A stretch of 64,000 nt of DNA from Escherichia coli. GTDB lineage: Bacteria > Pseudomonadota > Gammaproteobacteria > Enterobacterales > Enterobacteriaceae. Within the stretch, counting starts at the first letter, position 1, and each line of letters opens with the position of its first letter. The stretch lies in assembly GCF_003334305.1 (NCBI RefSeq), contig NZ_QOWS01000014.1. One strand, written 5' to 3'. The notes under the pieces are model-generated. The model was not told the DNA's origin, made no database searches, and saw nothing but the letters and a program-made list of their open reading frames with translations. The position numbers were made by a program, and so were the translations under genes. Positions 12,927-49,926 of the stretch are shown here, piece after piece.

Positions 12927-13072
12927 TCATCTGATTTACAAAACACGCTAATTCGTCTTCCATAAACCGTGACGATTAAGAATTATACATAATGCGCTGC
13001 ATTGAGGAATTCCCTGAATGTGACGCAAATCACTTCAAAGAGTGAGCAACAGTCAGTATCATCATGTGAGTT

Positions 13073-13107
13073 AAACCCTCGCCGCCTGACGGTGAGGGTT
13101 TTCTTTT
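13073..13107 (+). terminator. hairpin plus T-tract in the rna-rnk intergenic region
   Basis: aaccctcgccg...cggtgagggtt inverted repeat followed by ttcttttggg; coordinates approximate. Confidence 0.5.
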
Positions 13108-13155
13108 GGGTATGTTTATCTGCGACACTCGCAGTACCGACGACATGGAGTAAAA

Positions 13156-18104: not shown

Positions 18105-18475
18105 CTATACTTCCTCCGTGTTTTCGATGAGATGTAAGGTAACCAATTTTTGCCGATTCGGCTAATGCGTTTCCATTATCAAATCGATAAGTTTTACCTT
18201 ACAACCTTCGTAAGACAACTTTGTGAACTTTGCACCGCCAGCGGCGATAAAAAGTAAAATGGCCCCCTTTCCAGGTGACCGTGTAATCTGAACTACCCTT
18301 TGGTATCTTCAGCGCCTGCCTGCAGGCTGAGGTGTTGCCCTTACAAATGCAACAACGACATGGATTACAACACCCTCATAAACAAAGGGCAATCACCTGA
18401 TCTAAGCTCTTACCTATGACAGTGATAGGTTATGCCTTTTACTCGACTTTTGCACTGACTGAAAAGGACAAATTA
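18105..18475. promoter_or_regulatory. ahpC / dsbG divergent control region (expected OxyR-regulated ahpC promoter)
   Basis: 370-bp intergenic region between divergently transcribed ahpC and dsbG; the OxyR site is placed from knowledge of the K-12 locus, not from a motif found here. Confidence 0.4.
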
Positions 18476-46794: not shown

Positions 46795-46833
46795 TGCTAA
46801 CGTCAGATTGTTGACAAAGTGCGCGTCGTTCAT

Positions 46834-46931
46834 GCCGGATGCGGCGTGAACGCCTTATCCGGCCTACAAAAATCTTGCCAATTCAATATATTGCAGGACC
46901 ATGTAGGCCTGATAAGCGTAGCGCATCAGGC
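46834..46931. repeat. BIME-like pair of inverted REP elements downstream of fepA
   Basis: gccggatgcggcgtgaacgccttatccggcctac (46834..46867) and inverted gtaggcctgataagcgtagcgcatcaggc (46893..46931). Confidence 0.8.
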
Positions 46932-46968
46932 AGTTTAGCGTTTGTCATCAGTCTCTAATATGGTCGAC

Positions 46969-47589
46969 ATGAAAACTACGCATACCTCCCTCCCCTTTGC
47001 CGGACATACGCTGCATTTTGTTGAGTTCGATCCGGCGAATTTTTGTGAGCAGGATTTACTCTGGCTGCCGCATTACGCGCAACTGCAACACGCTGGACGG
47101 AAGCGCAAAGCCGAACATTTAGCCGGGCGGATCGCTGCAATTTATGCGCTGCGGGAATATGGCTATAAATGTGTGCCCGCAATCGGCGAGCTACGCCAAC
47201 CGGTGTGGCCTGCGGAGGTATACGGCAGTATTAGCCACTGCGGGGCTACGGCATTGGCCGTGGTTTCCCGTCAACCGATTGGCGTTGATATCGAAGAAAT
47301 TTTTTCTGCGCAAACAGCGACCGAATTGACAGACAACATTATTACACCAGCAGAACACGAGCGACTCGCAGACTGCGGTTTAGCCTTTTCTCTGGCGCTG
47401 ACACTGGCATTTTCCGCCAAAGAGAGCGCATTTAAGGCAAGTGAGATCCAAACTGATGCAGGTTTTCTGGACTATCAGATAATTAGCTGGAATAAACAGC
47501 AGGTCATCATTCATCGTGAGAATGAGATGTTTGCTGTGCACTGGCAGATAAAAGAAAAAATAGTCATAACTCTGTGCCAACACGATTAA
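46969..47589 (+). CDS. entD: 4'-phosphopantetheinyl transferase EntD
   Basis: ORF 46942..47589 (track start is TTG); start placed at the ATG giving MKTTHTSLPFAGHTLHFVEF; an in-frame ATG 9 bp upstream (MVDMKTT) is an alternative. Confidence 0.85.
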   Translation: MKTTHTSLPFAGHTLHFVEFDPANFCEQDLLWLPHYAQLQHAGRKRKAEHLAGRIAAIYALREYGYKCVPAIGELRQPVWPAEVYGSISHCGATALAVVSRQPIGVDIEEIFSAQTATELTDNIITPAEHERLADCGLAFSLALTLAFSAKESAFKASEIQTDAGFLDYQIISWNKQQVIIHRENEMFAVHWQIKEKIVITLCQHD

Positions 47590-47710
47590 TTGACAACATC
47601 TGGTACGATTCGCCCGCAGCCATCACTGACCGCGGGCGAAAGTGTAAAGCAGGTGCCTTACCACTCTGACCTGACAACCGGATATGCGGGGATTGCTCCC
47701 CGCACAACGG

Positions 47711-47863
47711 CTACTTCTTCGGTTCGTAAGCGAGAACAGCCTTAAACTCAATATTACGTTCCTTTACGGTGAACTCACACAGCGAGTCTCCGACCAGAAG
47801 CGTAAATCCCAGTACCGTCAAACACAGCACTATGACTGCCACAAGGGCATATTTCGTCAGCAT
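47711..47863 (-). CDS. hokE: Hok-family type I toxin (copy 1)
   Basis: 50-aa [50 protein letters not shown]; the frame is open a further 33 codons upstream to an ATG at 47962 (MKPQEIF...). Confidence 0.85.
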
Positions 47864-47939
47864 GTTTATATTGCCTCCATGCGAAGAAGGGACTACCATC
47901 CGAGTTGTTGAGGCTCGGAGTGGCAGCCCCAGGATTGAT

Positions 47940-48010
47940 AGAAATATCTCCTGGGGCTTCATCTTTCCAGACCTCAGAGTTAACCTGAAACCGGAAAGCT
48001 TCAGGCACCC
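47940..48010 (+). ncRNA. candidate Sok-like antisense RNA, copy 1 (position inferred)
   Basis: placed antisense to the mok-like start/RBS region by analogy with hok/sok architecture; stem-loop cctgaaaccggaaagcttcagg on this strand; no promoter verified. Confidence 0.25.
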
Positions 48011-48213
48011 GCCGTTATCTTACCCTTCCTCAACAAAATAGCTGTTTATTTATACAGTGAATCCTGTTTCGGACTTCTGTCGGCAAAACTCATCATTGCT
48101 CTTAAAACGAAATCGCCCGCAGCCATCACTGACCGCGGGCGAAAGTGTAAAGCAGGTGCCTTACCATCCTGACCTGACAACCGGATATGCGGGGATTGCT
48201 CCCCGCACAACGG

Positions 48214-48366
48214 CTACTTCTTCGGTTCGTAAGCGAGAACAACCTTAAACTCAATATTACGTTCCTTTACGGTGAACTCACACAGCGAATCCCCGACCAG
48301 AAGCGTAAATCCCAGCACCGTTAAACACAGCACTATGACTGCCGCAAGGGCATATTTCGTCAGCAT
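48214..48366 (-). CDS. Hok-family type I toxin (copy 2)
   Basis: 50-aa [50 protein letters not shown]; 2 aa substitutions relative to copy 1 (V8A, A42V). Confidence 0.85.
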
Positions 48367-48466
48367 GTTTATATTGCCTCCATGCGAAGAAGGGACTACC
48401 ATCCAAATTGTTCAGGTTTGGGTAGGTAGCCCCAGGGTTGATAGAAATATCGTCCTGGGGCTTCAT
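48278..48466 (-). CDS. mok-like overlapping leader ORF (copy 2), out of frame with hok
   Basis: 62-codon ORF starting MKPQDD at the position homologous to the copy-1 MKPQ start, ending inside hok in another frame, as in the canonical mok/hok arrangement. Confidence 0.3.
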
Positions 48467-48514
48467 CTTTCCAGACCTCAGAGTAAACCTGAAACCGGAA
48501 AGCTTCAGGCACCC
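48444..48514 (+). ncRNA. candidate Sok-like antisense RNA, copy 2 (position inferred)
   Basis: homologous position to the copy-1 candidate. Confidence 0.2.
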
Positions 48515-48798
48515 GCAGTTATCTTACCCTTGCTTAGCAAAATAGCTGTTTATTTATACAGTAAGTCCTGTTTCGGACTTCTCACTCCCCATTTGATCAA
48601 CTGAAGCTGAACCCGTTTTTTTCTGCATGCCTCAATCGTCAAAATTCTTCGCCACCAGCCAGCCGTGCCATAACTTGTCACATTGCAAAAGTAGCCAAAT
48701 TGCTTCAGTCACCATCACCAAAAAAAGAAACATTCCAGAACTTCCGCATCTCGCCCAGCCGCTCCGACTTCTATACTGAATAGAAAACGCCAACTTAA

Positions 48799-49926
<1,128 letters not shown>

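What the first reader, a model, noticed from the sequence alone, without database searches (positions are those of the whole stretch)
47611..48582. Tandem duplication of a hok/sok-type type I toxin locus between entD and ybdK, with no IS element
Two ~468-bp units (47611..48078 and 48114..48582) lie head-to-tail with a 35-bp spacer. Each carries a complete 50-codon Hok reading frame (two amino-acid differences), a mok-like leader ORF and the conserved 3' hairpin. From memory, K-12 has a single hokE here next to an IS186 copy thought to inactivate the locus; this window has no IS and two copies, so both could be expressed. Roughly 5-10% divergence between units suggests the duplication is not recent.
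Basis: partly seen in the sequence, partly recalled or inferred. Interest (0 to 1): 0.6.

Follow-up and report, generated by a model that had tools for sequence, protein, structure and literature searches.

The report
Common tandem hokE toxin-antitoxin pair
The window holds two complete copies, one after the other, of the small hokE toxin / SokE antisense-RNA module between entD and ybdK, but this is an old arrangement found in at least 38% of complete E. coli genomes and in sister species, so it is ordinary.

Summary
Two head-to-tail units (47610-48078 and 48113-48582, genes on the minus strand) are separated by a 34-bp spacer. They differ at 26 of 470 aligned positions (5.5%). Each has an intact 50-codon hokE.

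Each unit also has the parts of a hok/sok-type locus:
- an Rfam hok/sok leader match (86 bits);
- a SokE-like antisense gene;
- a LexA (SOS) box;
- 5'/3' tac-fbi pairing;
- a 3' hairpin.

There is no insertion sequence.

The interpretation as something unusual does not hold.
- The unit-spacer-unit junction occurs in at least 2055 of 5426 complete E. coli genomes, including O157:H7 and IAI1, and RefSeq annotates it there as two hokE genes.
- The K-12 state (one copy plus IS186) occurs in 1872 genomes.
- The same junction is present in E. whittamii and two other divergent Escherichia lineages, so the duplication probably predates E. coli.
- Hok "islets" made by local duplication have been described in general terms. 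I found no paper that names this locus.

- The differences between units cluster in the Sok 5' tail and its target hairpin.
- The leader ORF is a mok-like overlapping frame only in the upstream unit. In the downstream unit, as in K-12, it is in frame with hok.

Verdict: already known, low interest.

The parts
48113..48582 (-). Upstream (ybdK-proximal) hokE/sokE unit, 470 bp, allele type 'beta'
   Evidence: Direct repeat, alignment, allele typing.
47610..48078 (-). Downstream (entD-proximal) hokE/sokE unit, 469 bp, allele type 'alpha'
   Evidence: Direct repeat, alignment, allele typing.
48079..48112 (.). 34-bp spacer. It supplies the T-tract (TTTCGTTTT on the minus strand) of the upstream unit's terminator.
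   Evidence: It has no homology to either outer flank. It is conserved in other arrays. Only 3 of the 2056 records matching the 91-nt junction query matched it partially, so in E. coli it was found almost only at this junction.
48214..48366 (-). hokE copy 2, 50 codons (A8, V42)
   Evidence: ORF list. Pfam HOK_GEF, E = 1.1e-7. The exact sequence is named HokE in public records.
47711..47863 (-). hokE copy 1, 50 codons (V8, A42). The protein is identical to the UTI89 copy, to the entD-proximal O157:H7 copy, and to a cluster member whose UniRef representative is HOKE_ECO57.
   Evidence: ORF list; RefSeq WP_000956465.1; cluster look-up.
48278..48466 (-). Leader ORF of unit 2: 62 codons, overlapping hok out of frame (mok-like)
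47711..47962 (-). Leader ORF of unit 1: same ATG, but lacking one C, so it runs in frame into hok (83 codons). K-12 hokE is the same.
47907..47966 (+). SokE-like antisense RNA of unit 1, about 60 nt: a 5' single-stranded tail, then a hairpin followed by CUUCAUCUUU
   Evidence: Mapped by homology to the sokE ncRNA annotated in MG1655. Sequence and fold.
48410..48470 (+). SokE-like antisense RNA of unit 2, about 61 nt. Its 5' tail differs from that of unit 1 at 7 positions.
48042..48057 (.). LexA (SOS) box CTGTATAAATAAACAG upstream of the unit 1 mRNA start
   Evidence: Pattern search: 2 matches in the window, 0 expected by chance. hokE is listed among LexA-regulated genes with a known SOS box.
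48546..48561 (.). LexA (SOS) box of unit 2
47855..48010 (-). hok mRNA leader of unit 1 (Rfam RF01794). The inferred mRNA 5' end is at 48010, and the tac element is at 48003-48010.
   Evidence: 86.5 bits against a gathering score of 59. The 5' end pairs with fbi in the predicted fold.
48358..48514 (-). hok mRNA leader of unit 2 (Rfam RF01794). The inferred mRNA 5' end is at 48514.
   Evidence: 86.2 bits; fold.
47652..47659 (-). fbi element of unit 1 (AAGGCACC), paired with the mRNA 5' end
48155..48162 (-). fbi element of unit 2
47684..47705 (-). GGGG-N6-CCCC hairpin after the hok stop codon in unit 1. It is the likely 3' end hairpin of the processed mRNA and is the site where IS186 sits in K-12.
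48187..48208 (-). The same hairpin in unit 2
48113..48142 (-). Terminator hairpin of unit 2, followed by a T-tract
   Evidence: The only terminator-like site found by the scan.
47610..47639 (-). The same hairpin at the end of unit 1, with no T-tract (followed by AATCGTACC), as in single-copy loci

Best explanation
The region is a two-unit array of the chromosomal hokE/sokE type I toxin-antitoxin module. It is an old copy-number polymorphism of the entD-ybdK intergenic region in Escherichia, not a strain-specific event.

Each 469-470-bp unit is a self-contained module with these parts:
- a LexA box over the inferred promoter;
- an mRNA of about 400 nt whose 5' end (tac) pairs with a 3' element (fbi), keeping the full-length RNA closed with the leader Shine-Dalgarno sequence sequestered;
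- a leader ORF whose translation is expected to deliver ribosomes to the hok start;
- the 50-codon membrane toxin, carrying a TadA-editable TAC(G) codon 46;
- on the opposite strand, a Sok RNA of about 60 nt complementary to the leader.

Inferred mechanism, by analogy with plasmid R1 hok/sok and K-12 hokE. DNA damage removes LexA and raises hok mRNA. Slow 3' trimming removes fbi, and the 5' end refolds into the tac stem. The processed RNA is then either bound by its Sok and destroyed, or translated to give the toxin.

Copy number changes by recombination between units. K-12 and its relatives carry one unit, disabled by IS186 inserted in the 3' hairpin.

What is shown: the anatomy, the in-silico folds, the distribution among genomes, and the age. 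What is inferred: expression, SOS induction of both copies, toxicity of both copies, and how specific each Sok is for its own mRNA.
For: Anatomy of both units:
- Repeat and alignment; intact Hok ORFs.
- Pfam HOK_GEF match; both exact proteins are named HokE and each was seen on at least 1000 contigs.
- Rfam RF01794 scores 86 bits in each unit against a gathering score of 59.
- K-12 sokE maps onto both units. Its inferred promoter lies in the least variable part of the unit (diversity 0.000-0.005).
- The full-length mRNA folds pair nt 1-8 with fbi, with z-scores of -8.4 and -7.5.
- Truncated RNAs refold into a 5' tac stem that frees the GAGG leader SD, as described for R1.
- A perfect LexA box is present in each unit, and hokE is an accepted LexA-regulon member.
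- TACG at codon 46 is present in both units, and editing of hokE codon 46 has been reported.

Distribution:
- The junction is in 2055 of 5426 genomes.
- The whole 2.4-kb region matches at 99% identity or better in 898 records.
- PGAP annotates hokE x2, and x3 in some genomes.
- The K-12-type IS186 junction is in 1872 of 5426 genomes.

Age:
- The same unit-spacer-unit arrangement occurs in E. whittamii, where entD is only 87% identical to the window's.
- It also occurs in two other divergent Escherichia lineages.

Literature: tandem type I loci and Hok islets made by local duplication are described. 13.5% of chromosomal hok genes in Escherichia lie in islets.
Against: - No expression data were available. 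No sigma-70 promoter reached the scan threshold for hok or sok, so promoters and RNA ends rest on homology.
[quoted passage not shown] This is reported second-hand, so 'functional' may mean little more than 'intact'.
- Unit 1 lacks a canonical overlapping mok frame and lacks a T-tract after its terminator hairpin.
- The spacer is not derived from either present flank, so a simple duplication of today's single-copy locus does not explain the array.
- E. albertii has one copy, so 'two copies ancestral for the genus' is not established.
Confidence: 0.85

Rival explanations
1. One reading: a noteworthy, lineage-specific tandem duplication that restores or doubles an active hokE locus relative to the IS186-inactivated K-12 state.
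For: K-12 does have one copy with IS186 in the 3' hairpin. The window has two intact copies and no IS.
Against: The junction is in at least 38% of complete genomes, including O157:H7, O55:H7, O111:H8 and IAI1, and in other Escherichia species. The K-12 state is itself only about 35%. Both arrangements are annotated in RefSeq.
Confidence: 0.03
2. The one-, two- and three-unit loci seen today are different deletion subsets, or unequal-crossover products, of an older array of four or more diverged hokE alleles in a fixed order. Each allele has its own Sok recognition sequence.
For: - The units fall into about four allelic groups that are older than the strains carrying them.
- In the 10 E. coli sensu lato arrays read, the orders are beta-alpha, gamma-alpha, delta-beta-alpha, beta-gamma, delta-gamma and delta-alpha. 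All fit the single order delta-beta-gamma-alpha, and no array repeats a type.
- Single-copy loci carry alpha, beta or delta.
- Differences cluster in the Sok tail and its target.
Against: - Only 10 arrays were read (about 17 genomes sampled in all).
- Consistency of six pair orientations with some linear order has roughly a 3/8 chance at random (my calculation).
- E. whittamii shows gamma-like followed by delta, which breaks the order.
- Alleles are mosaics. For example, the +C indel occurs on several backgrounds, which indicates gene conversion.
- No four-unit array was read.
Confidence: 0.25
3. One of the two units (most likely the entD-proximal one) is a decaying, non-functional copy.
For: Unit 1 has no out-of-frame mok and no terminator T-tract. 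Chromosomal hok loci have been called inactive.
Against: - Both features of unit 1 are shared with single-copy loci: E. albertii and E1V33 have the alpha-type leader, and K-12 and UTI89 have the same flank with no T-tract.
- The Hok ORF, leader ATG, SD, inferred Sok promoter, tac, fbi and hairpins are all intact.
- The unit 1 protein is identical to the only HokE of UTI89 and to the entD-proximal copy of O157:H7.
- Four of the six CDS differences between the units are synonymous.
Confidence: 0.1
4. The two units arrived by independent insertion of hok cassettes rather than by local duplication.
For: The spacer has no homology to either flank. The homology ends sharply at the same unit boundaries in all arrays.
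Against: The units are 94.7% identical, share one orientation, and belong to one family found at only this locus. In three-unit arrays the spacer itself is repeated with the unit, which fits a repeating unit-plus-spacer period. The Hok survey also attributes islets to local duplication.
Confidence: 0.07

Closest known systems
E. coli K-12 hokE/sokE locus (b4415/b4835), with IS186B
   Same: - Same chromosomal site between entD and ybdK.
- About 96% identical unit.
- Same Sok position, LexA box, hairpins and 50-aa toxin.
- The K-12 leader ORF is in frame with hok, as in the window's unit 1.
   Different: K-12 has a single unit of a different allele ('delta'). IS186 inserted in the GGGG-N6-CCCC hairpin separates fbi and the terminator from the mRNA body. 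The window has two intact units of the 'beta' and 'alpha' types.
hok/mok/sok of plasmid R1 (parB)
   Same: - Architecture: Rfam leader model, tac-fbi closure, the leader SD sequestered and then freed after 3' truncation, a cis-antisense Sok with a 5' tail and terminator hairpin, and a Hok/Gef toxin.
   Different: - Chromosomal, and in tandem.
- Carries a LexA box.
- The leader ORF frame is not fixed: it is overlapping in unit 2 and in frame with hok in unit 1.
- No evidence of post-segregational killing. Chromosomal loci tested by others lacked it.
Tandemly repeated type I toxin-antitoxin loci (ldr/rdl, ibs/sib, zorO-orzO/zorP-orzP) and Hok 'islets'
   Same: Two or more copies of a small-toxin/antisense module in one intergenic region, arising by local duplication and stable over evolutionary time.
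   Different: Those papers do not single out the hokE pair at entD-ybdK. Here the divergence between copies is concentrated in the antisense recognition segment.
SOS-regulated type I toxins tisB/istR-1 and dinQ/agrB
   Same: A small membrane toxin under a LexA box, held in check by an antisense RNA.
   Different: The toxin families are unrelated, and their antitoxin RNAs are arranged differently (my own knowledge, not tested here). SOS control of hokE is documented for K-12 only. For the two units here it rests on the presence of the box.

Membership tests
Hok/Gef toxin family (Pfam PF01848) | Sequence match to the family profile; a membrane peptide of about 50 aa | tested here: met
   HOK_GEF, E = 1.1e-7, model positions 1-42 of 42, for copy 2. 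Both exact sequences are public proteins named HokE.
NCBIfam HokA equivalog NF007290 / Hok subfamily NF007279 | Score above the curated cut-off | tested here: not met
   49 and 45 bits against a cut-off of 89; 40 and 35 bits against a cut-off of 73. The proteins are related to HokA but are not HokA. RefSeq names them HokE; how that name is assigned was not examined.
hok/sok locus (R1 paradigm) | Conserved structured hok mRNA leader (Rfam RF01794) | tested here: met
   86.5 and 86.2 bits against a gathering score of 59, full-length matches on the hok strand. Two stem pairs covary among alleles.
hok/sok locus (R1 paradigm) | Long-range 5' tac / 3' fbi pairing in the full-length mRNA, and refolding after 3' truncation | tested here: met
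   In silico only. The minimum-free-energy folds pair nt 1-8 with AAGGCACC, with z-scores of -8.4 and -7.5. Truncated RNAs form the tac stem and release the leader SD.
hok/sok locus (R1 paradigm) | Overlapping out-of-frame mok reading frame coupled to hok | tested here: inconclusive
   Unit 2 has one: 62 codons, frame +1. Unit 1 does not: its leader ORF is in frame with hok at 83 codons, as in K-12. Translational coupling itself cannot be tested with these tools.
hok/sok locus (R1 paradigm) | Cis-encoded unstable antisense Sok RNA complementary to the leader | tested here: inconclusive
   Both units align to the annotated K-12 sokE, with a conserved hairpin and U-rich tail. The inferred promoter TTGCCT-N17-TACCAT is below the scan threshold. 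Expression and stability cannot be tested here.
hok/sok locus (R1 paradigm) | Toxicity of Hok; post-segregational killing | not testable with these tools
   The K-12 HokE allele was toxic when overexpressed. Chromosomal hokA/B/C loci did not mediate post-segregational killing. Both points come from the literature.
LexA (SOS) regulon | LexA box CTGT-N8-ACAG at the promoter; induction by DNA damage | tested here: inconclusive
   CTGTATAAATAAACAG is present in both units, with 0 expected by chance. hokE is listed as having a known SOS box. Induction of these two copies was not tested.
Hok islet / tandem type I toxin-antitoxin repeat | Two or more hok homologues within 2 kb, of one sequence cluster | tested here: met
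   The starts of the two hok genes are 503 bp apart and the proteins are 96% identical.

The most novel reading that the evidence does not exclude
The entD-ybdK site holds the remains of an ordered multi-allele hokE array (delta-beta-gamma-alpha). Its units have kept nearly identical toxins, promoters and RNA scaffolds, but have diverged specifically in the Sok 5' tail and target hairpin and in the leader-ORF frame.

On this reading, each antitoxin controls mainly its own toxin mRNA. Different E. coli lineages then carry different combinations of independently controlled, SOS-inducible toxins.
Probability: 0.2. Interest if true: 0.45.

Novelty: already known. Interest (0 to 1): 0.15.

Why it matters
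It matters little as a discovery. The arrangement is in reference genomes such as O157:H7 and IAI1, is annotated as two hokE genes, and fits the published picture of tandem type I toxin loci.

It is useful mainly as a correction of a K-12-centred view:
- The IS186-disrupted single copy is one of several common states (about 35%).
- Tandem intact copies are at least as common (38% or more).

Anyone studying hokE, SOS-induced toxins or persistence in non-K-12 strains should expect two or three copies with different Sok sequences and different leader frames. These can confound probes, knock-outs and read mapping.

Tried and rejected
- Tandem Repeats Finder reported nothing, because the 503-bp period exceeds its 500-bp limit. 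The repeat finder and alignment were used instead.
- The sigma-70 scan found no promoter for hok or sok. Promoter assignments (hok -10 TAAGAT at 48017-48022; sok TTGCCT-N17-TACCAT at 47871-47899) are my reading by position and homology only.
- The spacer was compared with both outer flanks and showed no significant similarity (shuffle P about 0.7). I therefore dropped the idea that it is a duplicated piece of the entD end.
- Counting copies from the number of BLAST 'places' of a 370-nt unit query was rejected, because partial hits to other hok loci inflate it. Junction-specific 91-nt queries were used instead. These give lower bounds, because divergent spacers may escape megablast.
- Pedersen & Gerdes 1999 is not held, and the supplements of Fozo 2010 are not held. 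The Hok preprint and its supplements do not name this locus.
- The exact-pattern scan of species representatives found nothing in E. fergusonii or E. marmotae. A 24-nt exact pattern cannot establish absence.
- I did not find or read a four-unit array. One search shows at most 3 junctions in one genome.
Full report

Yes. The repeat finder reports two direct-repeat blocks, 47610-47909/48113-48412 (97%) and 47949-48078/48453-48582 (95%), with start-to-start spacing of 503 and 504. The two blocks are one repeat broken by a single-base indel.

A pairwise alignment in the sense of the genes shows homology running from AGAAGTCC to GCGGGCGA, with none beyond either end. Within those limits there are 26 differences in 470 columns, or 5.5%; blastn gives 94.7% identity. 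The units are therefore 47610-48078 and 48113-48582, and the spacer is 48079-48112 (34 bp).

Tandem Repeats Finder missed the repeat because the period exceeds its 500-bp limit.

The hok genes are on the minus strand, so the unit at 48113-48582 is the upstream one. The two 50-codon Hok ORFs (47711-47863 and 48214-48366) differ by V8A and A42V plus four synonymous changes.

The flanking ORFs are entD (46942-47589) and ybdK (48808-49926), and there is no room for an insertion sequence between them.

**2. What each unit contains**

- *Toxin.* Copy 2 matches Pfam HOK_GEF (E = 1.1e-7). Both exact sequences are public proteins named HokE, each seen on at least 1000 contigs. The NCBIfam HokA and Hok-subfamily models score below their curated cut-offs, as expected for a HokE rather than a HokA.
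- *Leader RNA.* Rfam RF01794 ('sok') hits both units at 86 bits against a gathering score of 59. The match is on the hok mRNA strand, so it marks the structured leader and puts the mRNA 5' ends at about 48010 and 48514.
- *Closed full-length mRNA.* Folding the roughly 405-nt RNAs pairs nt 1-8 (GGGUGCCU) with AAGGCACC near the 3' end. The z-scores are -8.4 and -7.5 against shuffles. In this fold the leader GAGG Shine-Dalgarno sequence sits inside the 5' hairpin.
- *Refolding after truncation.* When the RNA is cut upstream of fbi, three of the four truncations tested refold with a new 5' stem (GCCUGAAGCU with GGUUUCAGGU) that releases that region. This is the closed-to-open switch described for R1 hok.
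- *Antisense RNA.* MG1655 annotates sokE 44-103 nt upstream of the hokE start on the opposite strand. The homologous segments here are 47907-47966(+) and 48410-48470(+). Each has a 5' single-stranded tail and a hairpin followed by CUUCAUCUUU. The segment holding the inferred sok promoter and the hok SD and start is the least variable part of the unit among 19 units compared.
- *LexA box.* Each unit carries CTGTATAAATAAACAG, at 48042-48057 and 48546-48561, with 0 matches expected by chance. hokE is listed among LexA-regulated genes with a known SOS box.
- *Editable codon.* Codon 46 is TAC followed by G in both copies. This is the TadA editing context reported for hokE.
- *3' hairpins.* A GGGG-N6-CCCC hairpin follows each stop codon (47684-47705 and 48187-48208), and a 13-bp terminator hairpin ends each unit. 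Only the upstream unit's hairpin is followed by a T-tract, which the spacer supplies. The downstream unit ends like all the single-copy loci.

**3. One correction on 'mok'**

Both units share the leader ATG. The upstream unit has an extra C (GGACGAT), which gives a 62-codon ORF overlapping hok out of frame, like mok. The downstream unit lacks that C, so its leader ORF runs in frame into hok (83 codons).

This is not decay peculiar to this strain. K-12 hokE, E. albertii and several other units have the in-frame form. A third allele class has a second 1-nt deletion and a 22-codon uORF that stops about 30 nt before the hok ATG.

Work on R1 shows that leader translation must reach the hok SD, while the Mok product itself is not important. 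Frame variation is therefore tolerable in principle. The short-uORF class would be predicted to couple poorly, but this was not tested.

**4. Comparison with other genomes**

The 2.4-kb region is 100% identical to E. coli strain 600468, and 898 records match it at 99% or better. RefSeq annotates two hokE genes there.

- A 91-nt query spanning the end of the upstream unit, the spacer and the start of the downstream unit is found in 2055 of 5426 complete E. coli genomes. These include O157:H7 and IAI1. A 370-nt unit query also gives two places in the O55:H7 and O111:H8 records.
- Only 3 of 2056 matching records match that query partially, so the spacer is essentially confined to this junction.
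- This count is a lower bound, because more divergent spacers may escape megablast.
- Three-unit arrays exist.
- The K-12 junction between the hokE 3' hairpin and the IS186 end is found in 1872 of 5426 genomes.
- In K-12, IS186B sits 18 nt after the stop codon, inside the GGGG-N6-CCCC hairpin. It separates fbi and the terminator from the rest of the mRNA.

Tandem intact copies are therefore at least as common as the K-12 state.

**5. Age**

An exact 24-nt pattern was scanned over one genome per species. The fetched loci were then compared with the window.

| Genome | Arrangement | Note |
|---|---|---|
| E. whittamii | fepA-entD-unit-spacer-unit-ybdK | entD only 87% identical to the window's; junction 93% identical |
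| 'E. coli' SCPM-O-B-8794 | tandem | flanking genes about 91-92% identical |
| Escherichia sp. MOD1-EC7003 | tandem | |
| E. albertii | single | |
| Escherichia sp. E1V33 | single | |

The shared spacer suggests a single origin. If the arrays were inherited vertically rather than exchanged between lineages, that origin predates the diversification of E. coli. Whether the genus ancestor had one or two copies is open.

The spacer has no detectable similarity to either outer flank, so the array is not a plain duplication of today's single-copy locus. Its origin is unexplained.

**6. Where the two units differ**

Ten of the 26 differences lie in 36 nt (47900-47935; binomial P about 1e-5). Seven of them lie in the 22 nt complementary to the Sok 5' tail. 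Among 19 units from 12 genomes, this segment is by far the most variable: mean pairwise difference is 0.18 there against 0.11 or less elsewhere, mostly below 0.05.

In the mRNA the segment forms a hairpin. Two of its stem pairs switch between G-C and A-U among alleles.

Predicted duplexes of the 22-nt Sok tail:

| Sok tail | Target mRNA | Predicted duplex (kcal/mol) |
|---|---|---|
| Unit 1 | own | -48.9 |
| Unit 2 | own | -42.8 |
| Unit 1 | unit 2 | -17.3 |
| Unit 2 | unit 1 | -27.2 |

Sok and its target are encoded by the same DNA, so any mutation there preserves cognate pairing. The clustering may therefore reflect relaxed constraint rather than selection for orthogonal antitoxins. I cannot distinguish the two explanations.

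**7. A pattern seen in passing**

The units fall into about four allele groups. In hok transcription order the 10 arrays read are:
- beta-alpha (the window and 600468);
- gamma-alpha (two O157-type genomes);
- delta-beta-alpha (two genomes);
- beta-gamma (two genomes);
- delta-gamma (three genomes);
- delta-alpha (one genome).

Single-copy loci carry alpha, beta or delta.

All of these fit one order, delta-beta-gamma-alpha, and no array repeats a type. That pattern would be expected if the loci are subsets of an older, longer array. The evidence is weak, however. Few genomes were read. The chance of such consistency at random is roughly 3/8 (my calculation). E. whittamii breaks the order, and the alleles are visibly mosaic.

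**8. Literature**

Tandem duplication of type I toxin loci is a recognised feature. A recent survey found 10% of Hok genes in 'islets' of 2-6 copies that arose by local duplication. In Escherichia, 13.5% of chromosomal hok genes lie in islets.

I found no paper in the held library that names the hokE pair at entD-ybdK. The primary paper on chromosomal hok loci is not held.

Chromosomal hok loci tested by others did not mediate post-segregational killing, while HokE was toxic when overexpressed.

**9. Verdict**

The suggestion that this is an unusual state is not supported. It is a common, old, already annotated copy-number polymorphism. Interest is low.

The residual points of interest are the concentration of differences in the antisense recognition segment, the variable leader frame, and the possible ordered array. 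None of them is established.

Noticed in passing
window 48272-48604 (+): A 110-codon ORF lies antisense to the leader of the upstream hok unit. RefSeq annotates part of it as a 'hypothetical protein' (WP_009008364.1). In genomes with other hokE alleles the same ORF is marked as frameshifted or carries an internal stop. It tracks the indels in the leader, so it is probably not a gene.
   Followed up: partly
window 47684-47705 and 48187-48208: The GGGG-N6-CCCC hairpin after each hok stop codon is exactly where IS186 sits in K-12 and in 1872 other complete genomes. From memory, this matches the known IS186 target preference. Both copies here are uninterrupted.
   Followed up: partly
L006, L016, L019 (Ecol_656, 72322051416_S37, AHB24): In one group of genomes the hokE array is flanked on the entD side by two SDR-family oxidoreductase genes instead of entD. 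Their junction variant is about 93% identical to the window's, and 542 records fall in the 90-95% identity band.
   Followed up: no
L019 (AHB24) and hits H11, H32, H38: In some genomes IS150 is inserted in or next to the hokE array, on the ybdK side. This is a second kind of IS disruption at this locus.
   Followed up: no
L007 (strain BS-04): This locus is rearranged: one complete beta unit plus fragments of another, spread over about 800 bp between entD and hokE.
   Followed up: no
window 46823-46910: Between fepA and entD there are an ES036 (RF02751) match above its gathering score and sub-threshold naRNA4/REP-like matches. This looks like an ordinary REP element.
   Followed up: no
window 13002-13110 (+) and 18249-18342 (-): An rnk leader (RF01771, 125 bits) and STnc70 (RF02069, 44 bits) are found elsewhere in the window. 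Both are unrelated to the finding.
   Followed up: no
window 47855-48010 and 48358-48514 (-): The Rfam family called 'sok antitoxin' (RF01794) matches the hok mRNA strand, not the strand of the annotated SokE RNA. A hit to it therefore marks the hok leader, and its strand should not be read as the antitoxin's strand.
   Followed up: yes
L003, L006, L009, L010, L015 (gamma-type units): One hokE allele class has a 22-codon leader ORF that stops about 30 nt upstream of the hok ATG. By the R1 rule that leader translation must reach the hok SD, these copies might not translate Hok, although their hok ORFs are intact.
   Followed up: partly
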